64,000 bases of DNA from Psychromonadaceae bacterium (lineage in GTDB: Bacteria > Pseudomonadota > Gammaproteobacteria > Enterobacterales > CBDFNC01). Position numbers and translations under genes: made by a program. Below are positions 1-35,012 of this stretch, in pieces. Position 1 is the stretch's first letter. Each line of letters begins with the position of its first letter. The notes under the pieces were generated by a model. It worked only from the letters and a program-made list of their open reading frames with translations, was not told where the DNA came from and searched no databases. The DNA lies in contig CBDFNC010000001.1 in NCBI GenBank assembly GCA_965249895.1, forward strand, positions 1,163,024 to 1,227,023, read 5' to 3'.

Positions 1-182
1 CCAACCTCGATAAATTTAAAAACCGTAATATTAACCTGCTCTCGAGTCCAACGCTGGCATGCCCAAGCCAGGCGGCCTGGCAGCAATTTGCTAAGTTAAA
101 ATATGCTCAATCTGTGTATGCAAAACTTACCTCAGGTATTGCATTTGATAAAGCAATCTAATCAATTGGAAAGCCAGCGGGT

Positions 183-968
183 TTAGGCTGGCTTTCTGAA
201 TAAGTTAGGCTGCGCCTTGTCATACAGGTGTGAGTCGAAGAAATCCTCGCTATCCAAGACATGGCCCACCAAGATAAGTGCGGTGAGTTTGATATCTTTG
301 GCGCGCACTTTCTCTGTAATATCGCTTAACGTCCCTTTAATTATTTGCTGATCCGGCCAGCTAACTCGATAGCACACCGCCACGGGGCAAGCCTTGCCAT
401 AATGTGGGATCAGCTCTTCGGTGATTTTGCCTAGCTTGGTAATACTCAGGTGAATGGCCAGGGTCGCCTTACTTTTTGCCAACTGACTCAGCTGCTCCTG
501 CTCTGGCATAGGTGTTTTGCCTGCGAAGCGTGTCAGTATCACGGTTTGGGAAACGCCGGAGAGGGTTAACTCTTGTCCTAATGCGGCGGCGGATGCTGCC
601 GTGGCGGTTACTCCGGGGACAACCTCAAAGTCGATCCCAAGTCCTTTTAGCCGCCTGATCTGTTCACCGATAGCGCCATACAGAGACGGGTCGCCGCTGT
701 GTACTCTGGCAACCAGCTGGCCCTGCTGCTCTGCTTGCTGGATATACTCAATGATCTGATCCAGGTGTAACTCGGCCGTATTGATCAGGGTTGCACTGTC
801 TTTGGCATCCTGTAATACAGCGGTTGGCACCAGGGAGCCTGCGTATAAAATAAGGTCGGCCTGTTGGATGAGCTTCAGGCCTTTGACTGTAATTAAGTCA
901 GGATCGCCAGGACCTGCGCCAATAAAATACACTGTCATATTAGTGCTCCAGTTTTTTGCTGTATCCAC
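183..968 (-). CDS. cbiF: precorrin-4 (cobalt-precorrin-4) C11-methyltransferase
   Basis: N-terminal VYFIGAGPGDPDLITVKG tetrapyrrole methylase signature. 261 aa. Last gene of the co-directional cbi cluster. Confidence 0.85.
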   Translation of the reverse strand: MDTAKNWSTNMTVYFIGAGPGDPDLITVKGLKLIQQADLILYAGSLVPTAVLQDAKDSATLINTAELHLDQIIEYIQQAEQQGQLVARVHSGDPSLYGAIGEQIRRLKGLGIDFEVVPGVTATAASAAALGQELTLSGVSQTVILTRFAGKTPMPEQEQLSQLAKSKATLAIHLSITKLGKITEELIPHYGKACPVAVCYRVSWPDQQIIKGTLSDITEKVRAKDIKLTALILVGHVLDSEDFFDSHLYDKAQPNLFRKPA

Positions 969-1713
969 GGGGGGTGTAGACCCAGCCCTGCGCCGTGACC
1001 TTGGTTTCGCTGTTGCCGATTTGCACCAGGGTCAGCATATCCACATCTTTGGCATTCAGGTCTTTCAGCTCGATGATAGTAATCTGCTCATCTTCTCGGC
1101 TAAGATTACGACCTAGGATCACGGGTGTATTTTGCGGTCTGTACTCCAGCAAAATATCTCTGGCCTTATTGAGCTGCCAGTCTCTTTTTTGTGATACCGG
1201 ATTATAAAAAGACACCACAAAGTCCCCCATAGCGGCGGCTTTTATCCGGGTTTCTATGGTTTCCCAGGGAGTTAACAGATCTGAAAGGGAGATGGCGCAA
1301 AAATCGTGACCTAAGGTGGCGCCGACCCGAGCTGCAGCCAGTTGCATTGCGGAAATGCCAGGCACGACTTCTATTTCTACATCCAGCCATTCGGGTTTGG
1401 TTTGCTTGTCTAACAGCTCAAACACCAAAGTCGCCATGGCGAAAATACCGATATCGCCGCTGGAAATTAGTGCGGTGGTTTTGCCTGACGCCGCCAAGTC
1501 TAAAGCCAACTCTGCGCGTTTAATTTCTTCACCTAAGGCCCTGTCGTGGCGAACCTTGCCCGAGGCCAGCTCTCCCAGCAGGTCGATATACAGACCGTAG
1601 GCCACCAGGTCGGAGCTCTGGTTTATAGCATGTTTGGCTTTTGGTGAAAGGTAGTCCAGGTCACCAGGACCCGTGCCTAATACAAATAATTTAGTCATTT
1701 TCTTCTTGGTCAC
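940..1713 (-). CDS. cbiH: precorrin-3B (cobalt-precorrin-3) C17-methyltransferase
   Basis: KLFVLGTGPGDLDYLSPKA methylase motif. 257 aa. The 29-nt overlap with cbiF suggests translational coupling. Confidence 0.85.
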   Translation of the reverse strand: MTKKKMTKLFVLGTGPGDLDYLSPKAKHAINQSSDLVAYGLYIDLLGELASGKVRHDRALGEEIKRAELALDLAASGKTTALISSGDIGIFAMATLVFELLDKQTKPEWLDVEIEVVPGISAMQLAAARVGATLGHDFCAISLSDLLTPWETIETRIKAAAMGDFVVSFYNPVSQKRDWQLNKARDILLEYRPQNTPVILGRNLSREDEQITIIELKDLNAKDVDMLTLVQIGNSETKVTAQGWVYTPRGYSKKLEH

Positions 1714-2545
1714 TTTTTTCTTGGTAACTTAACGCGATAGCGCAGGTTGCGCGACGATTTTTTTGTTTATTAATGTAGAGTTCTGAGTCCGCCTGGCCTT
1801 GCCTGCTGGCGTCTATCAGGGCGGCGGCTTCAGCAACGCCATAACAGCCTACTTCCCGAAACACGATATCCGATTTCTGGCTGAGTTTCTCTTCCACCAG
1901 GCGTAATTGCTTGGCGGGATAAAAGTGAATGGGCAACTGGTATTTATTCGCCAGCTGTAACATGGCTTGTTCGTCTTGTTTCAGGTCTATGCTGGCAAGG
2001 CCGGACAATTTCTCTGGGGTGAGACGTCCTTGCTTTAAAACAGACAGAAACACGGATTCCAATATCTCAAGAGGACAGCCCCTGTCACTACCCAGTCCAG
2101 CCACATATAGAGGGTCGGTATACTTGTTGCTGGTGGTAAGCACCAACTTCGAGCCTAGTGAGTCGGCTAGATTTCTGCCCCATTCATTGGCCCCCCCTTC
2201 ATGGCCGGACAGCAAGGGAATGATAAATTCACCATTTTCATCCAGTACCAATACAGCGGGGTCACTTTTTTTATCTTTTATTACCGGGGCCAGCGTTCTT
2301 ATCACGATACCTGTGGCACAGATAAATATCAGTCTTTGGCCCGAATTAAACTTCTGCTGGATGGTGGCTGCAAAAGGTTTGGGGTTGGTTAGGTGTTCGG
2401 CATCCAGATATCTTAAAAGGCGCTTTGCTAACAAATGCCCTTTTGCTGTCAGGCTGATAATGACAGGTTTATTCAAGACTGACTCCCTGGCGCTTGTTCG
2501 TGATGAGTAACAGGGAGAAGTAGGGGCCCGGACCGGATAGTTCAT
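1691..2545 (-). CDS. cbiG: cobalt-precorrin-5A hydrolase CbiG
   Basis: CbiG C-terminal signature SIDLKQDEQAMLQLANKYQLPIHFY...VGCYGVAEAAAL. The long ORF overlaps cbiL by 77 nt. The real start is probably the in-frame TTG at about 2476, which overlaps the cbiL TAA stop. Confidence 0.7.
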   Translation of the reverse strand: MNYPVRAPTSPCYSSRTSARESVLNKPVIISLTAKGHLLAKRLLRYLDAEHLTNPKPFAATIQQKFNSGQRLIFICATGIVIRTLAPVIKDKKSDPAVLVLDENGEFIIPLLSGHEGGANEWGRNLADSLGSKLVLTTSNKYTDPLYVAGLGSDRGCPLEILESVFLSVLKQGRLTPEKLSGLASIDLKQDEQAMLQLANKYQLPIHFYPAKQLRLVEEKLSQKSDIVFREVGCYGVAEAAALIDASRQGQADSELYINKQKNRRATCAIALSYQEKSDQEEND

Positions 2546-3185
2546 CGATACTCCAGGTAATGGCTTGCTCGGGCATGCTGGCTTTTTCTATATAACACGC
2601 CTGTTCACTGCGCCCTGCTGCTTTTATTAACCTCAGTAAACGCTCTCTTTGCGATGCAACTTTTAGTAAGACCACAGAATCGAACTTGTCTAATGCATTT
2701 CGTATTTCCTGATCACTGGAACGACCCGACAGCACTGCCATAGACTCGCTCAGCAAGGTGAGAGGACGCCGAGTCGCTGCCGAAGCCGCATTGATGGAAG
2801 TGACTCCGGGAATAACTTCCACCTGATATTCCGGGCTGATACGCTCGAACAAGTAGATAAAGGAGCCGAAGAAAAATGGATCACCTTCACACAGGAAAGC
2901 CACATTTTTTCCGTTAGCCAAATGAGTTTTAATCTGCTCCGCTATGGCATCGTATTGCTGGTTGATTAAATACCTGTCTTTATTCATCTCCAGAGGTAGA
3001 GGTAAATGTTGCTGAGTCGGTTTGGCTTGCTCGAGTTGCTCCTTGGCGATACTGGCGCCTAGACTAAAACCCTTGGCATTGATTATGTAGCACACCACGT
3101 CGGCGTTGCGGATCAAGCGCGCTGTTTTTAGGGTGAGCAGTTCAGGATCGCCGGGCCCAAGTCCCAAGCCGTAAAGTATCGCCAT
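2469..3185 (-). CDS. cbiL: precorrin-2 (cobalt-factor II) C20-methyltransferase
   Basis: MAILYGLGLGPGDPELLTLKTARLI methylase N-terminus. 238 aa. Confidence 0.85.
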   Translation of the reverse strand: MAILYGLGLGPGDPELLTLKTARLIRNADVVCYIINAKGFSLGASIAKEQLEQAKPTQQHLPLPLEMNKDRYLINQQYDAIAEQIKTHLANGKNVAFLCEGDPFFFGSFIYLFERISPEYQVEVIPGVTSINAASAATRRPLTLLSESMAVLSGRSSDQEIRNALDKFDSVVLLKVASQRERLLRLIKAAGRSEQACYIEKASMPEQAITWSIDELSGPGPYFSLLLITNKRQGVSLE

Positions 3186-3406
3186 GATTTATATTTCCTT
3201 TTGCCAGCAGACTAAAAGCACAGGTGGCTTCGACGTGTCTGAGTAAAGCGCTAAGTCATCACGTGTTGGCATGATTTATTTTCCCTTTTGCCAGCAGACT
3301 AAAAGTACTGATGGTTTTGACGTATCTGAGTAAAGCGCTAAGTCATCACGTGTTGGCATGATTTAGTTTTCCTTTTGCCAACAGACTAAAAGCACAGCTA
3401 ATTGCG
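3183..3406. repeat. 88-bp tandem repeat (about 2.6 copies) spanning the cbiET stop / cbiL start junction
   Basis: Units start at 3183, 3270 and 3357. Each unit carries the last ~10 cbiET codons (tgcttttagtctgctggcaaaagg.aaa), a stop, atc and ATG, followed by about 50 nt of unit-specific sequence. Confidence 0.8.
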
Positions 3407-4586
3407 GTCTCAGCAATAAACTCTCGCCTAATTTACAGCCTCGTTTAACTGAAATTTCACTGATCTCTACTTCAGCACTTAATCGTTCAGCGGCTTTAAT
3501 CAAGCTGGCTCGGGTAGTCTCGGTGACACCGGCTGCCACCAGTCGGCCACCGGGCCTGAGCCTGGACCAGCAGGTGTCTAATATTTCGTTCAGGTTGCCG
3601 TTGGAACCGCCAATATAGATACAGTCAGGGTCGGGTAATGGGGCTAAGGCCTCCGGAGCGGAGCCAGGTGTGATCCGCAAATTGTGTTCAACGCCAAATT
3701 TATTGGCGTTTAGACCCAAGAACGCCAGGCGTTGGGAGTTGCTTTCAATAGCATATAAGGTGCAGAACGACTGGGCTCGGGCCCACTCTACAGCAAGTCC
3801 GCCACACCCTGCACCGACATCCCAGCCAATCTCTCCGGCGGCAGGTGCCAGTAAAGACAAGGCGCACAAACGCACTTCTTTTTTAGTGATCATACCCTTA
3901 CCTGCATCGGTTCCGGTTTCAAAAAGGTCGTCTTTGATACCGGGGAACTCAGGATAAAGTCCGCCTGGACCCTGAGTTTTGATCAGCGTCAGATGCAGGG
4001 GCTCGAATTGAATATCGCTGTGAAGCAGGCTTGCTACATCATATTCTCTAACGTTTTCATTGGGGTTGCCCAATTCTTCGCAGACCCACAAGGTGGACTT
4101 GTCATACCCGGCAGCAGTCAGTTCCCGGGCTATTGCTTGCGGGTAGCTGTGTTTGTCAGTGAGAATGGCGTACAAACGGTTGTTTTTAAGCTGGCTTCTT
4201 AATTTACTCAGAGGTCGGCCATGGAGGCTGACCAGAATAGCGTCCTGCCAGGCTATACCTAGTCTGGCAAAGGCGCTTTGTATGCTAGAGGTATTGGTGA
4301 AGACCTCAAACTGCCCCGGAAACAGGCGGTTTAAATAGGCGCCAACCCCATAAAGTAAAGGATCCCCCGAGGCCAATAAGCAGGTATTTTTATTTGGTAA
4401 AATAAGCTGCCCCAACTGAGAAAGCGGGCTAGGGTAGCTCTGCTTTTCTCCTGTGAGCAAAAGCTCTTTGGGTAATTTATTAAACTGGTGGGGGGCGCCA
4501 ATCACCAGCTCAGCCTGTTTTAGTCGCGCTAGCGCTTTGTTATTCAACCCGTTGTCACCGCAACCGACACCGATTAATGAGATCAA
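3363..4586 (-). CDS. cbiET: precorrin-6Y C5,15-methyltransferase (decarboxylating), fused CbiE/CbiT
   Basis: N-terminal methylase domain (ISLIGVGCGDNG) and C-terminal CbiT-like SAM domain (WDVGAGCGGLAVEWAR). 407 aa. Confidence 0.85.
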   Translation of the reverse strand: MISLIGVGCGDNGLNNKALARLKQAELVIGAPHQFNKLPKELLLTGEKQSYPSPLSQLGQLILPNKNTCLLASGDPLLYGVGAYLNRLFPGQFEVFTNTSSIQSAFARLGIAWQDAILVSLHGRPLSKLRSQLKNNRLYAILTDKHSYPQAIARELTAAGYDKSTLWVCEELGNPNENVREYDVASLLHSDIQFEPLHLTLIKTQGPGGLYPEFPGIKDDLFETGTDAGKGMITKKEVRLCALSLLAPAAGEIGWDVGAGCGGLAVEWARAQSFCTLYAIESNSQRLAFLGLNANKFGVEHNLRITPGSAPEALAPLPDPDCIYIGGSNGNLNEILDTCWSRLRPGGRLVAAGVTETTRASLIKAAERLSAEVEISEISVKRGCKLGESLLLRPQLAVLLVCWQKEN

Positions 4587-4607
4587 AGTAAATACCTTAT
4601 GGTTCGG

Positions 4608-5258
4608 TTAAAAAGAAATGCCGCGACTGAGTCTTAACAGGGTATTAAATGTTGCCGCAGTAAGGGCGCTACCGCCAGCTCGTCCACTCAGGCTAATCGC
4701 CTGAATATCTAACTTGTGTGCGGTTTGCATCAGCGCCTGTTTAGATTCAGCAGCTCCGACAAAACCCACTGGCATACCGATAATAAGCGCAGGTTTGGGG
4801 CAACCAGCGAATAACATTTCCTGTAATCGAAACAGGGCTGTCGGTGCGTTACCGATAAGCACTATGCCGCCAGCCAGGTGGGGTTGCCATAATTCCAGTG
4901 CCGCCATGGTGCGGGTTTCGCCACTGTTTTTGGCAATGTTAGGAACATCAGGGTGATTAAGAAAACACAGGGGGTCCTGTTCTAAAAAGCGCTTTGTGAG
5001 CCCTTGTTTCACCATTTCAACATCACACAGGACAGCGGCGTCCTGGGCCAGAGCGGTCAACCCTGCACCCACAGCATTTGGGGTCATCTCCAGGTTGTCA
5101 GCAATGGCTGGGTCACCACAGGTATGTACCAGACGCATTGCCACCTGGGTTTGCTCGTTATCAAACCGGGATAAATCGGTGAGCTGACGAATTTGGCGGA
5201 AGCTTTCTTTTTCAATGGAGTGGGGATCACGAATATACTCGAATTCGAGTGGGGTCAT
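4608..5258 (-). CDS. cbiC: precorrin-8X methylmutase
   Basis: 216 aa with HTCGDPAIADNLEMTPNAVGAG, typical of CobH/CbiC. Confidence 0.85.
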   Translation of the reverse strand: MTPLEFEYIRDPHSIEKESFRQIRQLTDLSRFDNEQTQVAMRLVHTCGDPAIADNLEMTPNAVGAGLTALAQDAAVLCDVEMVKQGLTKRFLEQDPLCFLNHPDVPNIAKNSGETRTMAALELWQPHLAGGIVLIGNAPTALFRLQEMLFAGCPKPALIIGMPVGFVGAAESKQALMQTAHKLDIQAISLSGRAGGSALTAATFNTLLRLSRGISF

Positions 5259-5283
5259 TTAGGCTTGTTTCCTTTTGCTGGTG

Positions 5284-6102
5284 TCACAGGTGCACTGAAT
5301 GGTGCTTGGGCCCACGAGCCTGGCTTATAACGGGAGCCGACGCGGTTTTATCCTGCTCACGAATTAACACTGCAAGCAATGCCGTGATGGACGAGAAGCA
5401 ATGGGGCCACATGGGTTCGGCCGGGCGTTCCAGCATAACCACAGGGATCCCCAGGATTCGGGCGGCATCTATTTTGGCATTTACGGCATTGCCCCCGCTG
5501 TTTTTGGTGACCAATACATCTATCTTGTGCTGGCGTAACAAGCGAATTTCGGCATCCAGTGAGAACGGACCTATGGTTTGTTCTAGGTAGTAATTTTTTT
5601 CTTTTTGCGGCCGACCGATGGCCGTTCTGACCAGCCAGTATTGATGCTCGGGGATCCTGTCTAAGTGAGTCAGGGGTTCGCGTCCTAGGGTAAAAAAAGG
5701 TCGTTTGGCGGTTTTGGTTTGCTCTAGCACCTGTAGCCAGTCCGATGCACTGCTCCAATTATCATCTTTAGATTGTTGCCAGGGAGCTCTTAAATAACGC
5801 CACACAGGAACCTGGGCTAACTGGCAGGCCACAAAAGCGTTGTGACTGATCCTCTTGGCGAAAGGGTGCGTAGCGACGACGAGTCCAGCTATTTTCTCTT
5901 GCTTCAGGTATTCTGCCAGTCCTTCTGCGCCGCCAAACCCTCCGACTCTTAACTCACAAGCTAGCTCTGGGGTGCGTACTAACCCGGCAATGCTGTAAAT
6001 GCATTTAATGCCAGCCTGGTGTAGTTTTATGGCAAGCTGTTTTGCATCCTGTGTGCCGCCTAATATTAGCAGTTTCAACATTATCTCCTGATCACTCAAC
6101 AA
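5284..6102 (-). CDS. cbiJ: precorrin-6A / cobalt-precorrin-6A reductase
   Basis: LKLLILGGTQDAKQLAIKL N-terminus. 272 aa. Position in the cluster fits. Confidence 0.8.
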   Translation of the reverse strand: MLSDQEIMLKLLILGGTQDAKQLAIKLHQAGIKCIYSIAGLVRTPELACELRVGGFGGAEGLAEYLKQEKIAGLVVATHPFAKRISHNAFVACQLAQVPVWRYLRAPWQQSKDDNWSSASDWLQVLEQTKTAKRPFFTLGREPLTHLDRIPEHQYWLVRTAIGRPQKEKNYYLEQTIGPFSLDAEIRLLRQHKIDVLVTKNSGGNAVNAKIDAARILGIPVVMLERPAEPMWPHCFSSITALLAVLIREQDKTASAPVISQARGPKHHSVHL

Positions 6103-6147
6103 ACATCCTGTTGCTGAGCGTTTACCTGTGCTTAGGTATGGCCGGGT

Positions 6148-7248
6148 TTAATTATTGTGGTTGGCATATCCCACCATCTTCCCAGTTTTATTGATGGTAA
6201 ACACCTCAACAGATATATGAGGTGGCACGATCTTTTTTGCCTGTTGCAGCGCTAAGTCGCTGATTCTATCACCTAAAGCCAGACCGATCTCTTGGCATTT
6301 CGCCAAGGCAGCCAAACTGGTATTGGCCTGACGAACTTCTTCTTGCAAGTCTAGCTTAGCTCCGAGAAATTTGGCTTGTTGAGATAAAAACTCAAAATCT
6401 ATACTGGATTTACGGCTATGCAAGTCTATTGCGCCATAAGCCAGCTTAGAGAACTTTCCGAAGCCCCCCACCAGGGTTAATTTGTCGATGGGGTGACGTT
6501 TGATATGTTTTAACACGGCGCCGACAAAGTCACCCATTTCGAGGCGGGCTATCTCGGGTAAATTGTATTGTTGGGTAATAAATTTATCACTGGTATCTCC
6601 AGTACAAGCAGCTATATGTTTTACCCCATTGGCTCTGGCTACGTCTATGCCCTGATATATAGAGGCGATATAGGCGGAGCATGAAAACGGGCGCACTATA
6701 CCCGTGGTGCCTAAAATGGACAAACCACCTAATATGCCGAGTCTGGGATTCATGGTTTTGAGCGCCAGCGATTCACCATTCTCGATACCTATGCAAACCA
6801 AAAAACCCCCACGATAACCGGTTTGCTTTGCTAACTGGCTTAAATGGGATGTCATCATCTGCCTTGGTACAGGATTGATGGCCGGCTCACCAACGGCCAG
6901 GGCCAAACCAGGTCTGGTCACGGTGCCAACGCCTTGCCCGGCTTTAAAAAAAACGCCCGGCTGAGGTGTTAAAGACAATTTGGCAAAGACTGTAGCACGG
7001 TGGGTGACATCGGGGTCATCTCCGGCATCTTTTACCGTGCTGGCGTAAGCGGTAGTTGCATCGAGCAGGAGACTTTCTTTAATGGCAAAGTCAACATGTT
7101 GCCCTTTGGGTAGGGTAATGCTCAGCTGAGGCAGGTTTTGATCCAACAGCAAAAGATGGGCGGCCGCCAGGCTGGTAACAGTGGCGCAACTCCCAGTGGT
7201 AAAGCCGGATCGTAAGGGGGTATTTTTTTCTGCTGATTCTTGGCGCAT
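6148..7248 (-). CDS. cbiD: cobalt-precorrin-5B C1-methyltransferase CbiD
   Basis: [19 protein letters not shown] CbiD signature. 366 aa. First gene of the minus-strand cbi operon. Confidence 0.85.
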
Positions 7249-7295
7249 TAAAGGCTTTCAGTTTTTATCAATTCCAACAAAAGCTTAGCCTAACG

Positions 7296-8090
7296 CCAGC
7301 TTGGGAATCATAAATGAATTCTGGCATTATACCCCTCTTTGCCACAGATGACCTCAAACAATATACCCCTCTTTGCCATAGATGAACTCATATAATGACC
7401 AGTGCTCCAACCCATAGCTGCCACGCGTTTATTATTGCCTCCCCCGCCTCTAATCAGGGAAAAACTACCGTAACAGCGGCCCTGGCAAGGTTACATCGAG
7501 TGACGTTAGCGGCGCATCTTGTTACGTCTGCTTGGGAAAAATAAGAGAATTCTGGCATTATCTCCTTCTTTGCCATAGATGAACTCATATAATGACCAGT
7601 GCTTCAACCCATAGCTGCCACGCGCTTATTATTGCTTCCCCCGCCTCTAATCAGGGTAAAACTACCGTAACAGCGGCCCTGGCAAGGTTACATCGAGTGA
7701 CGTTAGCGGCGCATCTTGTTACGTCTGCTTGGGAAAAATAAGAGAATTCTGGCATTATCTCCTTCTTTGCCACAGATGAACTCATATAATGACCAGTGCT
7801 TCAACCCATAGCTGCCACGCGCTTATTATTGCTTCCCCCGCCTCTAATCAGGGTAAAACTACCGTAACAGCGGCCCTGGCAAGGTTACATCGAGTGACGT
7901 TAGCGGCGCATCTTGTTACGTCTGCTTGGGAAAAATAAGAGAATTCTGGCATTATCTCCTTCTTTGCCACAGATGAACTCATATAATGACCAGTGCTTCA
8001 ACCCATAGCTGCCACGCGCTTATTATTGCTTCCCCCGCCTCTAATCAGGGTAAAACTACCGTAACAGCGGCCCTGGCAAGGTTACATCGA
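7296..8090. repeat. 197-bp tandem amplification (about 4 copies) of the cbiA promoter/5'UTR plus its first 34 codons
   Basis: gaattc-anchored units start at 7316, 7547, 7744 and 7941. The first unit is 231 bp because of an internal 34-bp sub-duplication. Each unit holds tataATGaccagtgcttcaaccc...ggttacatcga. The last copy continues into full-length cbiA. Confidence 0.85.
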
Positions 8091-9290
8091 AACCTGGGGC
8101 GTAAGGTTACCGTGTTTAAAGCTGGGCCAGATTTTCTGGACCCAATGATCCATCATGTAGCGTCCGGCAATCCGGTATATAACCTGGATTTATGGATGGT
8201 GGGTGAAGAAAGCTGTAAACAGATGCTATATCAATCGGCGCAGGATTCAGATCTTATTATCATCGAGTGTGGCATGGGTTTATACGATGGAAAGCCATCC
8301 AGCGCCGATCTTGCCAGAACCTTTGGTGTACCTGTGGTGGCCGTGATTGATGCATCCTCTATGGCACAAACCTTTGGTGCGCTGGCGTATGGTTTAGCAA
8401 ACTACCAGGACAATTTACCCTTTGCCGGTGTTATCGCTAACCGGGTTGGTAGTGAGAACCATAAAAATTTATTGGCTGAAAGTATTCCGCCAGGTATGAC
8501 GTTTTTTGGCGCCGTGCCACGTAGCGAAGATATTGTCATTCCAGACCGACATTTGGGTTTAGTGCAGGCGGATGAAATCACCGATTTGGATAGCAGGCTG
8601 GATCAAGCGGCCAAGCTGCTGATGGAGGCTGGTGTGACCCAGCTGCCAGCGCCTGTGGAATTTCACCTGGCCTCAACAGAAAAAGTGGAGCCCTTGCTGT
8701 CGGGGGTAACCATAGCAATAGCCAAGGATCAGGCATTTGGTTTTGTTTATCAGTCTAATCTGGAGTGCCTTGAAGCTATGGGGGCCGAACTGACATTTTT
8801 CTCCCCTCTTAATAATGAACAGGTGCCCCAGGCTGATGCGCTTTGGTTGCCCGGTGGTTACCCTGAGCTGTATGCAGAGGTGTTGGCTGACAATCAGGCT
8901 AGCAAATCCAGTGTAGTTGCCTTTGCTAAGGCGGGGAATCCCGTGCTGGCGGAGTGTGGCGGTATGTTATACCTGCTGGAAACACTGGTGGATAAACAGG
9001 GGAATAAGTTTGATATGTGCGGTTTATTGCCCGGGGTCAGCACCTTGTGTCAACGGTTTCAGGGGTTGGGCATGCAGTCTGTCGAACTGAACGGAAGGGA
9101 GTTACGTGGCCATACTTTTCATCACACCAAGACTGACACCCCGATGGAGCCTGCTTATTATGCGCAAAAGCAAAGAGGTAAGGTGCAAGGTGAGGCTGTA
9201 TATAAAAGGGAAAATGTTTGGGCCTCGTATTTACACCTGTACTTTCCGTCTAACCCAGAGTTAACCGCTATGATGTTTAAAGGCGAGTGA
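7986..9290 (+). CDS. cbiA: cobyrinate a,c-diamide synthase (glutamine-hydrolysing)
   Basis: ALIIASPASNQGKTTVTAALARL P-loop, and a C-terminal glutamine amidotransferase region with ECGGMLYL. 434 aa. Confidence 0.85.
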   Translation: MTSASTHSCHALIIASPASNQGKTTVTAALARLHRNLGRKVTVFKAGPDFLDPMIHHVASGNPVYNLDLWMVGEESCKQMLYQSAQDSDLIIIECGMGLYDGKPSSADLARTFGVPVVAVIDASSMAQTFGALAYGLANYQDNLPFAGVIANRVGSENHKNLLAESIPPGMTFFGAVPRSEDIVIPDRHLGLVQADEITDLDSRLDQAAKLLMEAGVTQLPAPVEFHLASTEKVEPLLSGVTIAIAKDQAFGFVYQSNLECLEAMGAELTFFSPLNNEQVPQADALWLPGGYPELYAEVLADNQASKSSVVAFAKAGNPVLAECGGMLYLLETLVDKQGNKFDMCGLLPGVSTLCQRFQGLGMQSVELNGRELRGHTFHHTKTDTPMEPAYYAQKQRGKVQGEAVYKRENVWASYLHLYFPSNPELTAMMFKGE

Positions 9291-9431
9291 GGTGACCTCC
9301 CTATATTTTGTAGGGAAACCCGACTCCACTTTTCCAAGCAGAAGCCGATACATTAGCCAGATAGAGGTTTTGCTAAAATTACTTAATAGGCTACACTTTC
9401 GCAGCATTTTGGAAACCTGAATAATAATACT

Positions 9432-12530: not shown

Positions 12531-15317
12531 TTAAAAAATGTTTATATCGCTACTCAGAGCTAAGTCATTCTCTTCGACGAGCAGAGCTAACAATTGTTGC
12601 AGAGTACGTTGTCTTTGATATACCCAGCTACTGTAGGCAAGGGGGAATAGTGTGATCCCAGTGCGCTGAAACAGTTTGTAACGCTCCAAATGATAATATT
12701 GTTGGGACTCACCCGGGTAACCGATTAAATCTATGGCCAGCAGTTTATCGCCGTATTGGCAGGCAATATCCATCTCTGCCCCTGCTATGGGATAGTTTTT
12801 CCAGGTATTCACCCCATTGAGGGTTAGTATGCGACAAACCTCCCCCTGAAAAGCATCAAATTCCGTATCTTCGCTTAGATCGAAAGTAGCGGCGCGTTCA
12901 CAGGAGTGGATGTAGTCAAATAGCAAGGTACCGGATTTTAACCGGTGAGGTGGCGCCGATAAAAACAAGTAAAGGGCATCTCTGGCCCGGGTGATGGCGA
13001 CGTTAAATACATCGGCTCTGTTCATATACTGATAAGCGTGGCCAGAGCTTTCAGGATCCACACAAAACGAGATAAGCATGATATCTCTCTCGTCACCCTG
13101 GAATCCATAAGGCGTATCGACTCTTATTTGGTGCTTCTCCAATTTGTCAGGGTAAATATGCCGGGTGAGTAGTTTGTTTAAAATTTGAACTTGTTCTCTG
13201 AACGGCGACAAAATTCCTATGCTGGGAGTAATACCTTGGCGTTCATAGGATTGCAGTATGCTGTTAAGTTTGGCAAGCACGGCTTGTGCTTCACTGCGGT
13301 TTTTGCCGTTGTTATACACGCCGTCACAAAAAATCAACTCTATTGGGTTGTCATCAACCGCAGCGGGTTTTTGACGCATTAATTTTAATTGCTGGTTATA
13401 GAATTTTTTATTACTGAATTGGATAAGCTCGGGTTTACTGCGAAAATGCTCATCCAGCATCACTATGGCAGCTTGCTCCTTGATGGCGCTGTTCACCTGC
13501 TCCATCAGGCTATTGTCACGATAACTAGGTGGTAAATGGCCAAGATCAAACTTTTTCTGCAGCTTCTGCTCTTTATCCCTGGACAAGAAAGAAACAAACT
13601 TTAATTGTTTGGGATCTCCCACTACCACAGCTCGCTTTGCTCTGTAGAGTGCAGGTATAGCTGTCGCCATATCACATTGGGTTGCCTCGTCGATGATCAC
13701 CAGATCAAAAAGCTCCCGCTTTAGGGGCAGGCTGCGATGCAACTCTCCTAAGTTGCATAACCAAACAGGCAGTGCTTGTAGCAAAATATTGTAATCAATA
13801 TTGTCGAAATGACTTTCCTGGCTACTGGAATTTCGGGCCCGGATAGCCTTGGAGTAGTGTTGTAAATGCTCTCGATTGTCTTTGAGTACCCGGCTTAGTT
13901 GTTGTTTTCGGCTGCCGTTAATAAAATTGGCCAGCATCTTTTCACGTATCCGGTTTTCCTGGCAAATTTTATCAAACTGGGTAAACAGGGAGTGGTTGTT
14001 ATGGGCATCACGTTTGGCAATATACCCTTTAAAGCGATTAAGTAAACCCGGATGTTTTAAAGCCTTATGGGTAAACTTTCCGTGGCGAATTGCCTTTTTA
14101 CAGCGCTTGAGAAAGGTTTGCTCCAGGGTGAAAATCTTTGCTTTTTGTCGGGAAACGGCTCTTTGATCAACCCTTCCTTCCTGCTCCAGAGGGGTAAAGC
14201 CGCTAAGCAAGTCCAACAGGTATTTCTTTAGCTGCGATTGTTGGCTGGCGGCGCCAGCGCGAACAATAAAATCTTTCTGGCCTATCAGTGCGGCCAACTT
14301 GGTTTGGATCACCTCAATGGCTTCATCGGTCTGACTCAGGATAAGCACGGACTCTCCCTGCAGGTAGCGCTCCAATGCAATGCACGCAATGGTATAGGAC
14401 TTTCCTGTGCCAGGAGGGCCGACAATTTGGCTCACGGCATATTCATTGGCATTAAACAATGCCTTACTTTGGGCCCTGCTCAACAACCCTGGAATATTTT
14501 CCGGTCGGGCAGGTTTCGCCGAATTTATATAGGGCAAGTGGTAATTCAGTGTTTGCCGTAATGGAATGGAGAGACTTTCAGATTTTCTTATTTTCGTTAA
14601 TTCATGTAGCGTTCCCCTGGAAGCGAGAGACTGCTTCACCAGAGTTAAACAAGCTGCAGAGATAAGTTGGAATTTACCTTCCTTGGCATTGTTTTGTTTT
14701 TCTTCTATATAGCTGGCGTTGCTTAACTTGGGATAATGATATAGTTCCAGGCAATTTATCTCTTTGGTTAAACCTGTGATCCAGTGACTGAGCTTGGCGA
14801 CATCTTTGTCAGTGATCCCCTGAAATACGAATTTAGGCTCCTGGCGTTTTTTAGCTTCTCCTTGCATCCACTTTAACAAAGGCCAGTTTATGATAGGTTT
14901 GTCTCGCGCTATGGTGAGATAGTATTCCTGCTTGTCCTGTTCAATAAGCGCAGGATAATAAATAAGCGGAGCACAGACTTTCTTATTACCCGGGTAACTG
15001 GACGGCAGTTTTCCGATAATAAAAAAGCTACCGTAAAATAAGCTTTTTTCTCTTTGATAAGTGCGAACTGCTTTACTGAGCTCTTGGGCATAGGTTCTGG
15101 GTAGCGGAAGCCGGGGTAAAAAACCTGTGACCAATTCTTCCTGGCCGGACATTAAGCGTGTGTATTCGCAATTACGACCATAAACGTTAAACAGGTTTAG
15201 ATATCTATTATCGGCTTGGTAGCAGGCTCGAAAATACCTGATGAGATTGCGGCACTCCTGCTCCGACATACATTTCCTTGTAACTGCAGAGTAACGACTA
15301 GAAAGTGTATTTTGCAA
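12531..15317 (-). CDS. SF1 (Upf1/DNA2-like) helicase with C-terminal restriction-endonuclease-like (DUF559/Vsr-like) domain
   Basis: Walker A IVGPPGTGKSYTI, motif II VIIDEATQCD and GFQGDERDIMLIS (AAA_11/AAA_12 type). C-terminal ...EMDIACQYGDKLLAIDLIGYPGE... resembles the DUF559 nuclease fold. The N-terminal ~300 aa are unassigned. Confidence 0.8.
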   Translation of the reverse strand: MQNTLSSRYSAVTRKCMSEQECRNLIRYFRACYQADNRYLNLFNVYGRNCEYTRLMSGQEELVTGFLPRLPLPRTYAQELSKAVRTYQREKSLFYGSFFIIGKLPSSYPGNKKVCAPLIYYPALIEQDKQEYYLTIARDKPIINWPLLKWMQGEAKKRQEPKFVFQGITDKDVAKLSHWITGLTKEINCLELYHYPKLSNASYIEEKQNNAKEGKFQLISAACLTLVKQSLASRGTLHELTKIRKSESLSIPLRQTLNYHLPYINSAKPARPENIPGLLSRAQSKALFNANEYAVSQIVGPPGTGKSYTIACIALERYLQGESVLILSQTDEAIEVIQTKLAALIGQKDFIVRAGAASQQSQLKKYLLDLLSGFTPLEQEGRVDQRAVSRQKAKIFTLEQTFLKRCKKAIRHGKFTHKALKHPGLLNRFKGYIAKRDAHNNHSLFTQFDKICQENRIREKMLANFINGSRKQQLSRVLKDNREHLQHYSKAIRARNSSSQESHFDNIDYNILLQALPVWLCNLGELHRSLPLKRELFDLVIIDEATQCDMATAIPALYRAKRAVVVGDPKQLKFVSFLSRDKEQKLQKKFDLGHLPPSYRDNSLMEQVNSAIKEQAAIVMLDEHFRSKPELIQFSNKKFYNQQLKLMRQKPAAVDDNPIELIFCDGVYNNGKNRSEAQAVLAKLNSILQSYERQGITPSIGILSPFREQVQILNKLLTRHIYPDKLEKHQIRVDTPYGFQGDERDIMLISFCVDPESSGHAYQYMNRADVFNVAITRARDALYLFLSAPPHRLKSGTLLFDYIHSCERAATFDLSEDTEFDAFQGEVCRILTLNGVNTWKNYPIAGAEMDIACQYGDKLLAIDLIGYPGESQQYYHLERYKLFQRTGITLFPLAYSSWVYQRQRTLQQLLALLVEENDLALSSDINIF

Positions 15318-15360
15318 TTATGCGAAAAAAAGTAAAGCAAGATTAAATAAAAACTTGAAG

Positions 15361-15435
<75 letters not shown>

Positions 15436-23037: not shown

Positions 23038-23300
23038 GCTAGGTCCTATATGTATCTTTCTATCCGGAAGCTAAGCAGACACTACACTAGCCAGTGGTCT
23101 GTGTGAAGTTTGTATGTTAATCATTGGCTTATCCTTGAGAAGGGAGGTACTTCAGCGGAAAGGTCGTTTTTTATACAAAATATCTATTTTTAGATGTGCT
23201 GCTGTTGTTTAATTTATGACATAATGCGCGCCTAATTTATCCAGCCTCGCAAATAACCATAGTGTTTAGTGGGGTTTAGCTCTCAAATCGGAATAAAACA

Positions 23301-24887
23301 TTGCTTACAACTGCGAATATCACCATGCAATTTGGCGCCAAGCCATTATTTGAAAACGTCTCAGTAAAGTTTGGCGACGGTAACCGTTATGGTCTAATCG
23401 GCGCCAATGGCTGTGGTAAATCTACCTTTATGAAGATCTTAGGTGGCGACCTGGAGCCGAGTGCCGGTAATGTCTCCAAAGATCCTAACGAGCGTATTGG
23501 TAAGTTGAAACAGGATCAGTTTGCCTATGAACAATACAGTGTTATCGACACTGTGGTCATGGGGCACAATGAACTGTGGGCAGTGAAGTCAGAGCGTGAT
23601 GCAATTTATGCGAAGGCTGACATGACCGATGAAGACGGTATTCGTGCCGGTGACTTAGAAGCTGAGTTTGCCGAGATGGATGGTTATACAGCCGAATCAC
23701 GAGCGGGCGAATTGCTGCTGGGTGTTGGCATTCCGGTTGAACAACATTATGGCCCCATGAGTGAAGTGGCACCCGGTTGGAAACTACGTGTGTTGCTGGC
23801 CCAGGCTTTGTTCTCTGAGCCAGACATCATGTTACTCGACGAACCGACCAACAACCTGGATATCAGTACCATCCGTTGGCTGGAAGATGTGTTAAAAGAA
23901 CGCAACTGCACCATGATCATCATCTCTCACGATCGCCATTTCCTAAACAGTGTGTGCACTCACATGGCTGATCTGGATTACGGTGAATTACGTTTGTTCT
24001 CTGGTAACTACGATGAGTATATGACTGCGGCGACCCAGGCCCGCGAGCGTTTGTTGTCCGATAACGCCAAGAAAAAGGCGCAGATTTCCGAATTGAAATC
24101 CTTTGTCAGCCGTTTCTCTGCCAACGCATCAAAGTCAAAGCAGGCGACCTCTCGCGCCAAGCAGATCGATAAGATCCAACTGGACGAAGTGAAGCCATCG
24201 AGCCGTCAGAATCCGTTTATTCGTTTTGACCAACAGAAAAAGCTGCATCGTCTGGCGCTTGAAGTCACGGGTCTGGGTAAAAGCTATGACGAAGAGCTCT
24301 TTTCCGGCCTGGACCTGATGGTGGAAGTGGGTGAGCGTATTGCCATCATAGGGCCTAACGGAATAGGTAAAACAACCTTATTGAAGTGTCTGGTTGGGGA
24401 TACGGAACTAACCGCGGGTAACGTTAAGTGGTCTGAAAATGCAGACATTGGTTATTATGCTCAGGATCACGCCGCAGACTTCGAACAAGATCAACTTTTG
24501 TTTGACTGGATGAGCCAGTGGAAAAATGAAGGTGATGACGAACAGGCTATTCGCAGTATCTTGGGTCGCTTACTGTTTTCACAAGATGATATTAAAAAGT
24601 CAGTTAAGGTGATCTCGGGTGGTGAGCAAGGTCGTATGTTGTTTGGTAAGCTGATCATGCAAGGCCCAAACATCATGCTGATGGATGAACCCACCAACCA
24701 CCTGGATATGGAGTCCATTGAATCTCTTAACCTGGCGCTGGAAAACTACCCGGGCACCTTAATATTTGTCAGTCATGACCGGGAGTTTGTATCTTCTCTG
24801 GCGACCCGTATTATCGAGATGACACCAAGCGGTATCGTTGATTTCCGCGGTAGCTACGACGAGTACCTGCGTAGCCAGGGCGTGTAG
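23301..24887 (+). CDS. ybiT: ABC-F family ATPase YbiT
   Basis: Two ABC cassettes. The N-terminus [53 protein letters not shown] is near-identical to E. coli YbiT (recalled from memory). Probable TTG start. Confidence 0.9.
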
Positions 24888-24918
24888 TTACACTAACCTG
24901 TGATATAAGACCTTAAAA

Positions 24919-25144: not shown

Positions 25145-25831
25145 CTATCTCAAGCAGCTCCACAGGCGCTCAAACTCTCGACTGAACTTTCCAAGCAAAT
25201 CTTTGTTGTCGGTCACCAGGATATTTTCCTGGTTATATTTGCTGGCGCTGCGGGTCCAGTTAAACGAGCCGTTAAGCAGTTGTTTACCATCGAAGATTGC
25301 AAACTTGTGGTGCATATGGGCATCGGTTCTGTCCACCACAACCGGCACCCCTTTTTCAGTCAGAGCATATACGTCTGAGCCTTTGTCATTACGTTTATCA
25401 TTGTCGCTGATAATACGTACATTCACTCCACGCTGGTGGGCGCTGAACAAGGCGTCGGATAGCTGGTTATCGGAAATGGTAAATACGCACACGTCGATGC
25501 TGTTATGGGCGTTATTACACAGGCTGAGGATCCGTTGCTGGCAATCAGTGCCCGGACTAAAGCAGGCGTCAGCATCCACGCTTTCGGTAGCCGAGTTTTT
25601 ATCCAGGGTTTTAACCAGGTTTTCCAGCCACTTGATGGCGCGAAACTGCTCTTCGCTAAAGTCTCCCTGCTCCAGCAAGAGTGAAAAGGCCCGGTTGCGG
25701 ACAAAACTTATCTTATCTCTCTGGCCACTTAAGTTTTGGCCAAGCTCTGCTACCGCGACTTTTTCATCCTGAGATAGTTTCCTGTCTTCAAAGCTGCGAA
25801 TTAGCAGCTGCTCTATATCACTCTGTTGCAT
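25145..25831 (-). CDS. PLD-family (single HKD motif) nuclease-like protein
   Basis: HKD motif HMHHKFAIFDGKQLLNGSFNWTRSA (HxK...D...GSxN). 228 aa. Overlaps the stop of the upstream 1670-aa gene by 14 nt. Confidence 0.8.
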   Translation of the reverse strand: MQQSDIEQLLIRSFEDRKLSQDEKVAVAELGQNLSGQRDKISFVRNRAFSLLLEQGDFSEEQFRAIKWLENLVKTLDKNSATESVDADACFSPGTDCQQRILSLCNNAHNSIDVCVFTISDNQLSDALFSAHQRGVNVRIISDNDKRNDKGSDVYALTEKGVPVVVDRTDAHMHHKFAIFDGKQLLNGSFNWTRSASKYNQENILVTDNKDLLGKFSREFERLWSCLR

Positions 25832-30830: not shown

Positions 30831-30849
30831 TGTTCTTCCTTATATCCCG

Positions 30850-30871
30850 GCAAACTCGGCGCCGAGTTTGC
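30850..30871. promoter_or_regulatory. perfect 22-bp palindrome between the flotillin and giant ATPase genes
   Basis: gcaaactcggcgccgagtttgc, 20 nt upstream of the giant-gene ATG, with no T-run following. Confidence 0.5.
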
Positions 30872-30904
30872 TGGGGTTAATGGGGTAAAAAGTCAGCTAG
30901 CGAA

Positions 30905-33097: not shown

Positions 33098-33179
33098 GTG
33101 TAAAATCCTTTATTTTTAAATCGTCGAAGGGCGTATTGCCCATAGTCTTTGTGCTGACAGTTATTGTTATTTGGTAGTT

Positions 33180-33815
33180 TTAAGGTTTTAAGAAATCTGC
33201 TTCAGAGATGACCAAATATGCGTTATCGGTAGCCTGATACTTGAGTAGCACCAGCTTGTCGCCTCGAACCAGCTGATTGGGGCTGTCTGCCCTTACTTTT
33301 AAGATCAACCCGGCGCCACCATCATCCAGCCTGGCCTCTCCAAACTCTTCATTCACTTCCCCGGTCCTCAAGGTCACTGTGCGGCCAACCAAATCGTGTT
33401 TACCGGTTGCCGAAGTTTTACGAAAAAGGGTTTTTAACGGGTTTATAAAAATTGAGGTGATAGGGCAGGCCAGGATAAAAGCGACCACTATAGTGAGGCA
33501 CCCAATCAGGGCGCTTAACCAGCCAGGTGGAATAAATGACCAAAAAAGATAAACAGTAAAGTAACTGAGCAGCCAGCCAAACAGGGTGATAAAGGTAAAT
33601 ACTATGGTAGTGGGAATGCCGTCCAGCTTTAATTTCATCAGCAGGCCGGTGAAATTGATGCCTGAGTTATCCACATCAAATTCGGTATCAAAGTCCAGAA
33701 TGTCAATATCTAGCAAACCTAACGAGGCTACGATCCAATAAAGGCAAAACAGGCCTAAGAATATGGTGTAGATCAGGGTTGGAAAAGAACTGATATTGGC
33801 CACAAAAGCATTCAT
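33180..33815 (-). CDS. NfeD-like (YqiJ-type) membrane protein with C-terminal OB-fold
   Basis: Four predicted TM helices and a C-terminal beta-rich OB-like domain (LVGRTVTLRTGEV...GLILKVRA). This is the canonical partner position upstream of a flotillin gene. Confidence 0.75.
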   Translation of the reverse strand: MNAFVANISSFPTLIYTIFLGLFCLYWIVASLGLLDIDILDFDTEFDVDNSGINFTGLLMKLKLDGIPTTIVFTFITLFGWLLSYFTVYLFWSFIPPGWLSALIGCLTIVVAFILACPITSIFINPLKTLFRKTSATGKHDLVGRTVTLRTGEVNEEFGEARLDDGGAGLILKVRADSPNQLVRGDKLVLLKYQATDNAYLVISEADFLKP

Positions 33816-34388: not shown

Positions 34389-34815
34389 CCCTTTAACCCA
34401 CTGTACCCTGCAGTGGGTTTTTTTTATCTTCCAAAAGGGAAACTCGCAGGCTCGTGAACAACTATGCCCTTTAACCCAGAGTACCCTGCAGTGGGTTTTT
34501 TTTATCTTCCAAAAGGGAAACTCGCAGGCTCGTGAACAACTATGCCCTTTAACCCAGAGTACCCTGCAGTGGGTTTTTTTTATCTTCCAAAAGGGAAACT
34601 CGCAGGCTCGTGAACAACTATGCCCTTTAGCCCACTGTACCCTGCAGTGGGCTTTTTTTATCTTCCAAAAGGGAAACTCGCAGGCTCGTGAACAACTATG
34701 CCCTTTAACCCACTGTACCCTGCAGTGGGTTTTTTTTTATCTTCGAAAAGGGAAACTCGCAGGCTCGTGAACAACTATGCCCTTTAACCCACTGTACCCT
34801 GCTGATTTTTTTGGA
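34389..34815 (+). repeat. 78-bp tandem array (5 full + 1 partial unit), each unit a stem-loop plus an intrinsic-terminator hairpin; candidate tandem sRNA genes
   Basis: Unit: ccctttaa-CCCACTG-taccctg-CAGTGGG-T8-atcttcc-AAAGGG-(31 nt)-CCCTTT. Units start at 34389, 34467, 34545, 34623, 34701 and 34780. Unit 4 has a compensatory change that extends the stem (gcccactg...cagtgggc). Confidence 0.8.
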
Positions 34816-34893
34816 ACCAATCATAACAAAGGATGTTGGGTAACAATTGCCGGGTTGGCTGTAGGAGCGGATGCCTCTCTATAAGTGAAGAGG

Positions 34894-35012
34894 GCGAAGC
34901 CTGTGCCGGCAAGGTTCGCCGAACGCGCATCCATGCATTTAACATCTCATTCCTGAGATGGGTTCGGCGCCTACCAATCCTGCTGGAGCTGTTACCCAGA
35001 TTTGATAGGTAC
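34894..35012. repeat. dispersed ~120-bp structured repeat, copy 1
   Basis: About 85% identical to 45632..45750. Nested hairpins GCCGAAC...CATCTCA-ttcc-TGAGATG...GTTCGGC. Confidence 0.75.

What the first reader, a model, noticed from the sequence alone, without database searches (positions are those of the whole stretch)
7296..8090. Four-fold 197-bp tandem amplification of the cbiA 5' region, creating three extra start codons and short decoy ORFs
Seen in sequence:
- Units start at 7316, 7547, 7744 and 7941 and are 95% or more identical.
- Each unit holds the putative -10/leaderless start context tcatataATGacc and the first 34 codons of cbiA.
- In every non-terminal copy the frame runs into unit-junction sequence and stops after 49 codons (MTSASTHSCHALIIASPASNQGKTTVTAALARLHRVTLAAHLVTSAWEK).
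- The junction structure (catcga|gtgacg) fits simple head-to-tail amplification of an ancestral 197-bp segment.

Inference: multiple promoter/start copies could raise or modulate cbiA expression. Alternatively this is an unstable repeat or an assembly artefact.
Basis: seen in the sequence. Interest (0 to 1): 0.6.

Follow-up and report, generated by a model that had tools for sequence, protein, structure and literature searches.

The report
Tandem duplication of cbiA gene start
The start of a vitamin-B12 synthesis gene (cbiA), with its likely promoter, is repeated head-to-tail about four times; this is a real but ordinary structural variant of a known kind, and its effect on expression is untested.

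Summary
Tandem Repeats Finder reports a 197-bp period, 3.7 copies and 99% matches at 7370-8090. Homology to the native upstream sequence begins at 7293. Each unit carries the cbiA leader, the ATG and exactly 35 codons (not 34). This gives three 49-codon truncated ORFs ahead of the intact cbiA (7986-9290).

- Unit 1 is 231 bp because of an internal 34-bp duplication, and its peptide differs at two residues.
- A 24-nt segment at each junction has no traceable source, so this was not one simple amplification. Unit 1 is older; units 2-4 are nearly identical.
- TATAAT overlaps the ATG, so it cannot be the -10 element of a leaderless start there. A weaker candidate promoter (TTGGGA-18-TGgCATTAT) is conserved in all four units.

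No riboswitch, other Rfam family or unusual RNA structure was found.

The window holds four long-period arrays in 64 kb, one of them also at a cbi start codon (cbiL). This genome appears prone to such duplications, and those that leave an intact gene copy persist.

The closest known kind is the copy-number-variable promoter tandem repeats of M. tuberculosis. No relative carrying the cbi cluster could be found, so copy-number variation and any expression effect remain untested. Interest is low to moderate.

The parts
7293..7546 (+). Unit 1, the oldest and most diverged copy. It holds the native leader (7293-7394) with a 34-bp internal tandem duplication (7327-7360 and 7361-7394), decoy ORF 1 (7395-7544), then the first junction.
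   Evidence: Compared with unit 4 there are 11 differences in 68 leader nt and 4 in 105 coding nt.
7547..7743 (+). It differs from units 3 and 4 by one substitution (T at 7576, where they have C).
7744..7940 (+). Unit 3 (197 bp), identical to unit 4 over their shared length.
7941..8090 (+). Unit 4, a partial copy of 150 nt: the leader plus the first 35 codons of the intact cbiA. The repeat ends sharply at 8090 (CATCGA|AACCTG).
7986..9290 (+). Intact cbiA, encoding cobyrinate a,c-diamide synthase (434 aa).
   Evidence: Pfam CbiA plus GATase_3. The N-terminus aligns with 24 homologues. The best non-self hit is 64% identical.
7395..7544 (+). Decoy ORF 1 (49 aa): MTSAPTHSCHAFIIASPASNQGKTTVTAALARLHRVTLAAHLVTSAWEK.
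7592..7741 (+). Decoy ORF 2 (49 aa): 35 CbiA residues including the P-loop, then 14 junction-encoded residues.
7789..7938 (+). Decoy ORF 3 (49 aa), identical to decoy ORF 2.
7500..7523 (+). 24-nt junction 'filler' GTGACGTTAGCGGCGCATCTTGTT of unknown origin. It recurs at 7697-7720 and 7894-7917.
   Evidence: No significant match in the flanks, in cbiA, on either strand, or in the rest of the window.
7926..7955 (+). Candidate cbiA promoter TTGGGA-18 nt-CATTAT with TG at the extended -10 position. The same element lies at 7301-7330, 7532-7561 and 7729-7758.
   Evidence: Relaxed scan: 8 of 12 matches plus the TG. This is below the threshold of the consensus tool, which found none. None of the 7 unit-1 versus unit-4 mismatches in the 39-nt stretch falls in these 15 positions (p about 0.02, post hoc).
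7326..7354 (-). Best candidate promoter for the divergent cbiD operon (AGGTCA-17-TATAAT). It is present only in unit 1.
   Evidence: Relaxed scan, 9 of 12 matches. This is inference only.
6148..7248 (-). cbiD, the first gene of the divergent cbi operon. It sets the left limit of the intergenic region.
   Evidence: Pfam CbiD, E = 1e-86.

Best explanation
This is a genuine segmental tandem duplication at the 5' end of cbiA, made by illegitimate recombination or replication slippage and then expanded by unequal homologous recombination between units.

Each 197-bp unit contains:
- a 24-nt filler of unknown origin;
- the cbiA leader, about 68 nt, which includes a weak extended -10 promoter candidate;
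- the start codon and exactly 35 codons.

The array persists because the last unit runs on into an intact cbiA and the first unit keeps the divergent cbiD control region.

Inferred working: transcription can start in any unit and reads toward cbiA, so promoter dose is up to four-fold. Every upstream unit offers the same translation start as cbiA. Ribosomes there would make 49-residue truncated CbiA N-terminal peptides as by-products.

Units 2-4 are 99.5-100% identical over 197 bp. Copy number should therefore be unstable, as in a VNTR (variable-number tandem repeat). I think a dedicated evolved function is less likely than a tolerated, possibly mildly expression-raising, structural variant in a genome that makes many such arrays.

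Shown: the anatomy, the age order of the units, and the absence of known RNA elements. Inferred: promoter activity, translation of the decoy ORFs, instability and fitness effect.
For: - The array and its units are established.
- An intact cbiA with a homologue-like N-terminus follows the last unit.
- The age order is clear. Unit 1 differs from unit 4 at 15 of 173 positions and has its own 34-bp duplication. Units 2-4 differ at 0-1 positions.
- A promoter-like TTGGGA-18-TGgCATTAT is conserved in all four units, although the spacer and flanks of unit 1 have diverged.
- No Rfam family matches, including cobalamin riboswitches, even at E <= 10.
- The unit RNA folds no better than shuffled sequence (z = 0.62).
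- The window has 4 arrays of period >= 40 in 64 kb. The 80 other gammaproteobacterial cbiA loci have 2 in 867 kb, and neither is at cbiA.
- One of the window's arrays (87 bp, 3183-3397) also sits on a cbi start codon.
- A related contig has a strain-specific 92-bp duplication across a gene's 3' end.
- Edge copies are more diverged than central ones in the 78-bp array as well, as expected for arrays homogenised by recombination.
- Promoter tandem repeats with copy-number variation are documented in M. tuberculosis (PMC12817950). That paper also argues that assemblies tend to collapse such arrays rather than expand them.
Against: - No consensus sigma-70 promoter passes the standard scan. Promoter multiplicity therefore rests on an 8-of-12 match.
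- There is no Shine-Dalgarno sequence before the ATG, so translation efficiency of cbiA and of the decoy ORFs is unknown.
- The 24-nt filler is unexplained.
- The divergence of unit 1 is uneven: leader 11 of 68 against coding 4 of 105, Fisher p = 0.01. A single old duplication followed by uniform drift does not explain this.
- No second strain or read set could be examined, so neither the copy number nor its variability is verified.
Confidence: 0.65

Rival explanations
1. Adaptive, copy-number-tunable expression device (promoter tandem repeat or contingency locus). The array is kept because expansion and contraction of promoter-bearing units lets subpopulations vary CbiA, and hence B12-pathway, output. 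This is the mechanism proposed for the dop, lpdA and cysG promoter repeats of M. tuberculosis.
For: - Each unit keeps the candidate -35 and extended -10 elements intact while neighbouring positions diverged.
- The near-identity of units 2-4 implies recent turnover.
- A second array sits at another cbi start codon, cbiL.
- There is a documented precedent, including a repeat before a B12-pathway gene, cysG (PMC12817950).
Against: - There is no evidence of copy-number variation, because no relatives with the cluster exist in any collection searched.
- The promoter call is weak.
- The unit drags along 105 nt of coding sequence and makes useless peptides, which looks accidental rather than designed.
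- Survivorship alone explains why arrays sit at gene boundaries.
Confidence: 0.2
2. Assembly artefact: the real genome has one copy, or a different number of copies, and the assembler mis-expanded the repeat.
For: - Tandem arrays are classic assembly trouble spots.
- The source appears only once in the databases, as a 1.46-Mb contig, so there is no independent assembly.
Against: - The copies are distinguishable. Unit 1 has 15 substitutions and a 34-bp indel, and unit 2 has a private substitution.
- Other arrays in the same window have the same graded divergence.
- Assemblers usually collapse tandem copies rather than expand them (argued in PMC12817950).
- The 0.8-kb array is short compared with long reads. 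Contigs of related strains carry names in the style of a long-read metagenome assembler. That this applies to the source itself is my inference.
Confidence: 0.07
3. MIRU-like insertional element (after the mycobacterial interspersed repetitive units). The repeated unit, or its 24-nt filler, would be a mobile or templated element that targets gene starts and carries an ORF so that expression of the downstream gene is preserved.
For: - MIRUs are described as inserting at start codons with a coupled internal ORF (PMC12548453).
- The neighbouring 87-bp array has exactly that layout, with each unit ORF ending TAA-atc-ATG.
- Both arrays have a 5' segment of untraceable origin.
Against: - The 197-bp unit is 88% traceable to local cbiA sequence.
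- No other copy of the unit or of the filler exists in the 64-kb window.
- The two arrays' unknown segments are not significantly alike (181 of 3000 shuffles score as well).
- The decoy stop codon is 47 nt from the next ATG, so there is no coupling.
Confidence: 0.05

Closest known systems
Promoter tandem repeats (PTRs / VNTR loci) of Mycobacterium tuberculosis: dop (57 bp), lpdA (58 bp, VNTR3690) and cysG (54-56 bp, QUB15), described in PMC12817950
   Same: - Head-to-tail repeats lie directly at the promoter and 5' end of a gene.
- Units are thought to carry promoter elements, so copy number sets promoter dose.
- Near-identical units imply frequent expansion and contraction.
- One example precedes a cobalamin-pathway gene.
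   Different: - The unit here is 3-4 times longer and includes the start codon and 35 codons, so it creates translated decoy ORFs.
- Copy-number variation and an expression effect are shown for M. tuberculosis but not here.
- The organism here is a marine gammaproteobacterium.
Mycobacterial interspersed repetitive units (MIRUs), as summarised in PMC12548453
   Same: - Repeats lie at start codons and contain an ORF in the same orientation as the downstream gene.
- They are tolerated because expression of the downstream gene is preserved.
   Different: - MIRUs are dispersed at many loci and are not derived from the adjacent gene.
- Their ORF overlaps the downstream start codon by 4 nt.
- The cbiA unit is local, derived from the gene itself and not coupled. 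Only the neighbouring 87-bp cbiET/cbiL array resembles the MIRU layout.
Spontaneous tandem segmental duplication and amplification in bacteria, by RecA-independent illegitimate joining followed by RecA-dependent unequal crossing-over (general knowledge, not tested here)
   Same: - There is a sharp novel junction and a constant period.
- An intact gene copy remains at one end.
- A later expansion produced identical units.
   Different: - Typical laboratory duplications are kilobases long and are lost quickly without selection.
- This one is 197 bp, has an older diverged copy, and has a 24-nt filler at the junction.

Membership tests
Promoter tandem repeat / VNTR with copy-number variation (M. 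tuberculosis type) | Head-to-tail repeat immediately upstream of, or overlapping, a gene's 5' end | tested here: met
   Array at 7293-8090, ending 105 nt into cbiA.
Promoter tandem repeat / VNTR with copy-number variation (M. tuberculosis type) | Each unit contains a functional promoter or transcription start | tested here: inconclusive
   The consensus scan finds none. The relaxed scan finds TTGGGA-18-TGgCATTAT in all four units. No transcript data are available.
Promoter tandem repeat / VNTR with copy-number variation (M. tuberculosis type) | Copy number differs between strains or subpopulations | not testable with these tools
   No relative with the cbi cluster was found: CbiA and CbiD give self, then <= 64% identity. 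Exact look-ups and the DNA scan were empty. No reads are available.
Promoter tandem repeat / VNTR with copy-number variation (M. tuberculosis type) | Copy number changes expression of the downstream gene | not testable with these tools
   This needs reporter fusions or RNA-seq.
MIRU-like start-codon repeat | Units dispersed at many loci and not derived from the adjacent gene | tested here: not met
   The unit is found only in the array within the window. Of its 197 nt, 173 derive from the cbiA leader and coding sequence. The whole genome was not available.
MIRU-like start-codon repeat | The internal ORF's stop overlaps or abuts the downstream start (translational coupling) | tested here: not met
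   The decoy stop codon (for example 7739-7741) lies 47 nt before the next ATG (7789).
   The 24-nt filler has no match. The leader of unit 1 is only 84% identical to the others.
Leaderless mRNA start at the cbiA ATG | A -10 hexamer ending about 6-8 nt upstream of the A of the ATG | tested here: not met
   TATAAT overlaps the ATG (tcaTATAATGacc). The hexamers at the proper distance match TATAAT at no more than 3 of 6 positions (read directly from the sequence).
Cobalamin riboswitch leader | Match to the Rfam cobalamin riboswitch families | tested here: not met
   There are no Rfam hits in 7000-8300 even at E <= 10. The only hit at gathering threshold in the whole window is a tRNA.

The most novel reading that the evidence does not exclude
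This lineage may have a recurrent process that builds tandem arrays anchored at start codons of operon genes. Three cases lie within 5 kb of one B12 cluster: the 34-bp and 197-bp repeats at cbiA and the 87-bp repeat at cbiL. Each unit carries its own translation start and ORF. The arrays would then act as copy-number-variable dials on cobalamin-pathway enzyme levels, a gammaproteobacterial counterpart of the mycobacterial MIRU and promoter-repeat systems.
Probability: 0.1. Interest if true: 0.55.

Novelty: new member of a known kind. Interest (0 to 1): 0.22.

Why it matters
If the copy number is real and variable, this is a clean natural example of promoter and start-codon multiplication before a B12-synthesis gene, outside the mycobacteria. 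It could be used to test how tandem promoter dose and upstream decoy ORFs affect expression.

It also matters for annotation. Gene callers will report three spurious 49-aa 'CbiA-like' proteins here. Short-read assemblies of relatives are likely to collapse or break at this site.

Otherwise it is an ordinary structural variant with no new mechanism.

Tried and rejected
1. Cobalamin riboswitch or any other known RNA: no Rfam hit at gathering threshold or at E <= 10. The unit RNA folds no better than shuffles.
2. Leaderless start with TATAAT as the -10: rejected on geometry and because the promoter scan found nothing.
3. Source of the 24-nt junction filler: I searched the native upstream region, cbiA downstream of the breakpoint, both strands, the rest of the unit and the rest of the window. 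Nothing scored above shuffles.
4. Homology of the junction to the continuation of cbiA, suggested by the MAFFT alignment: not significant (910 of 2000 shuffles score as well).
5. Relatives for a copy-number comparison:
   - Genome contigs: best hit 60% identity.
   - CbiA search: self, then 64%.
   - CbiD search: self, then 64%.
   - Exact look-ups of CbiA, P0001, the decoy peptide, YaeQ and CbiD: nothing on record.
   - Metagenome DNA scan for the unit: 0 hits.
   - Two related contigs (92% and 98.8% identical) were found through the ABC-F gene, but they end before the cbi cluster.
6. A dispersed repeat family: the units of all four arrays occur only locally.
7. A shared element between the unknown parts of the 87-bp and 197-bp units: not significant.

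Full report
**What is there**

The window region 7250-8100 lies between two divergent cobalamin-pathway transcription units. On the minus strand, cbiD (6148-7248) heads a run of cbiJ, cbiC, cbiET, cbiL, cbiG and two further tetrapyrrole methylase genes (cbiF/cbiH-like). On the plus strand lies cbiA (7986-9290, Pfam CbiA plus GATase_3), followed by yaeQ.

Tandem Repeats Finder reports one array at 7370-8090 with period 197, 3.7 copies, 99% matches and no indels. The repeat finder gives the same register and also shows that similarity to the unit starts further left, at 7293. A 20-mer from the unit occurs five times, against 0.00 expected. The repeat is real and far beyond chance.

**Anatomy**

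Each unit contains four parts:
- a 24-nt segment, GTGACGTTAGCGGCGCATCTTGTT;
- 23 nt (ACGTCTGCTTGGGAAAAATAAGA) homologous to the native upstream sequence at 7293-7315;
- a 45-nt leader starting at the EcoRI site;
- the ATG plus exactly 35 codons (105 nt) of cbiA.

The repeat ends sharply at a codon boundary (CGA|AAC in the real gene, CGA|GTG at the junctions).

The three non-terminal copies give 49-codon ORFs at 7395-7544, 7592-7741 and 7789-7938. These encode the CbiA N-terminus, including the P-loop ASPASNQGKTT, plus 14 junction-encoded residues.

The ORF starting at 7986 is the true cbiA. Its N-terminus lines up with 24 homologues.

**History**

- Units 3 and 4 are identical over their shared length, and unit 2 differs by one base.
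- Unit 1 differs from unit 4 at 4 of 105 coding positions. Two changes are synonymous; the other two give S5P and L12F.
- Unit 1 differs from unit 4 at 11 of 68 leader positions.
- Unit 1 also carries its own 34-bp tandem duplication (7327-7360 and 7361-7394, 29 of 34 identical). This makes unit 1 231 bp long.

At least three events are therefore needed: an older 197-bp duplication, a 34-bp duplication inside the first copy, and a recent expansion to the present copy number.

Two points remain unexplained. First, the 24-nt segment has no detectable source in the flanks, in cbiA, on either strand or elsewhere in the window. Second, the leader of unit 1 is significantly more diverged than its coding part (Fisher p = 0.01). 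Possible causes, none of them tested, are:
- template-switch filler DNA;
- conversion of the coding part between copies;
- a first duplication made with a diverged allele from a related strain. Such relatives do exist at 92-99% identity.

**Signals**

In tcaTATAATGacc the hexamer overlaps the ATG, so a transcript started from it would begin inside the ORF. The only -35-like hexamer, TTGCCA, is 12 nt away.

The consensus tool found no sigma-70 promoter on either strand in 7000-8300. A relaxed scan finds TTGGGA-18 nt-CATTAT with TG in the extended -10 position in all four units, at 7301-7330, 7532-7561, 7729-7758 and 7926-7955. In the 39-nt stretch that holds this element, unit 1 and unit 4 differ at 7 positions, and none of them falls in the 15 promoter positions (p about 0.02, post hoc). 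This is the best candidate cbiA promoter. It would give a 5' UTR of about 24 nt with no Shine-Dalgarno sequence.

On the other strand, the best candidate for cbiD (AGGTCA-17-TATAAT, 7354 to 7326) exists only in unit 1. All of this is consensus matching, not evidence of function.

There is no Rfam match, even at E <= 10. The unit RNA folds no better than shuffled sequence (z = 0.62).

**Genome context of the phenomenon**

The 64-kb window holds four arrays with period >= 40. By contrast, 867 kb from 80 cbiA loci of other gammaproteobacteria hold two, and neither is at cbiA.

- The 87-bp array at 3183-3397 also sits on a cbi start codon. Each unit is ATG plus 26 codons, then TAA, then atc, and it ends exactly at the next ATG. 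This forms a relay of small ORFs between cbiET and cbiL. Again a 5' part of the unit has no traceable origin.
- The 78-bp array (34389-34802) repeats a terminator-like hairpin. Its edge copies are more diverged than its central ones.
- A contig from a related strain has its own 92-bp duplication across the 3' end of the ABC-F gene. The window lacks that duplication.

The lineage appears prone to long-period tandem duplication. Survivorship explains why the arrays sit at gene boundaries: a duplication spanning a gene end leaves one intact copy.

**Organism and comparison attempts**

The ABC-F protein points to a marine Oceanospirillales-like gammaproteobacterium. Its best named hits are about 87% identical (Hahellaceae, Motilimonas, Oceanospirillum).

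CbiA and CbiD have only self hits, from a 1.46-Mb contig, and then hits of 64% identity or less. Exact look-ups and a metagenome DNA scan found nothing. Two related contigs end just before the region. Copy number in other strains could therefore not be checked.

An assembly artefact cannot be excluded, but it is unlikely for three reasons:
- The copies are distinguishable.
- Other arrays in the window show the same graded divergence.
- Assemblers tend to collapse tandem copies rather than expand them, an argument made in PMC12817950.

**Interpretation**

The best explanation is a genuine tandem duplication that is probably unstable in copy number. It covers the cbiA promoter-proximal region, the start codon and 35 codons.

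Its inferred mechanism has three parts:
- up to four tandem promoters read into cbiA;
- the upstream start codons produce truncated 49-aa peptides as by-products;
- unequal recombination between the near-identical 197-bp units changes copy number.

Whether this raises CbiA output or is simply tolerated is not known. I give about 0.65 to the 'tolerated or mildly beneficial variant' reading, about 0.2 to an adaptive copy-number dial, and less than 0.1 each to an artefact or a MIRU-like element.

**Comparison with known systems**

The closest known kind is the promoter tandem repeats of M. tuberculosis (dop, lpdA, cysG). Their copy number varies within and between strains and is thought to set promoter strength (PMC12817950).

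MIRUs, which sit at start codons with a coupled ORF (PMC12548453), resemble the neighbouring 87-bp array more than the cbiA array.

The cbiA array meets the positional criterion of the promoter-repeat kind. Promoter content is inconclusive, and variability and expression effect are untestable here. It fails the MIRU criteria of dispersal and coupling.

**Verdict**

This is a new member of a known kind, of low to moderate interest.

Noticed in passing
window 3183-3397 (minus strand): An 87-bp x 2.5 tandem array lies at the cbiET/cbiL junction. Each unit is ATG plus 26 codons, then TAA, then atc, ending exactly at the next ATG. The unit ORFs (MPTRDDLALYSDTSKP[S/P]VLLVCWQK..) copy the CbiET C-terminus. 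The layout resembles a MIRU relay of small ORFs. The 5' 47 nt or so of the unit has no traceable source.
   Followed up: partly
window 34389-34802, and 35014-35054: A 78-bp x 5.3 tandem array lies here. Each unit holds a terminator-like hairpin (CCCACTG..CAGTGGG plus a T run). A diverged extra copy lies about 210 nt downstream. The intervening 34800-35010 stretch is non-coding and unidentified, with no Rfam hit.
   Followed up: partly
window 59693-59795: A 51-bp x 2 imperfect tandem repeat (78% matches). Each unit has a hairpin (CTTTGGCC...GGACCAAAG). It lies upstream of the gene starting at 59834.
   Followed up: no
L082 1589-1774 (ENA ERZ26167708 contig, 92% identical to window 23225-24906): The related strain has a 92-bp x 2 duplication spanning the 3' end and stop codon of the ABC-F gene. 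The window lacks it. So tandem duplications at gene ends are strain-specific in this lineage.
   Followed up: partly
window 25145-33815: A minus-strand block holds a PLD-like nuclease with weak DrmC/MkoB/DpdK-like PADLOC hits, a 1670-aa DUF3686/DUF7902/AAA ATPase, and 730-aa and 211-aa proteins with no family. Synteny with the two related contigs ends right after the ABC-F gene (about 24944). This block looks like a strain-specific, possibly defence-related, island.
   Followed up: partly
window 12531-15435: A 928-aa helicase has a C-terminal region matching anti-phage helicases (ProA, Hhe, MkoA/MkoC). It lies next to a tRNA gene (15364-15435, minus strand). This may be an integration hotspot or defence gene.
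   Followed up: no
window 1-9300: The whole cbi cluster in the window (cbiD, cbiJ, cbiC, cbiET, cbiL, cbiG, further methylase genes and cbiA) has no cobalamin riboswitch match. Its proteins have no relative above 64% identity in 5.8 billion proteins, although a housekeeping gene from the same window has relatives at 87-100%.
   Followed up: partly
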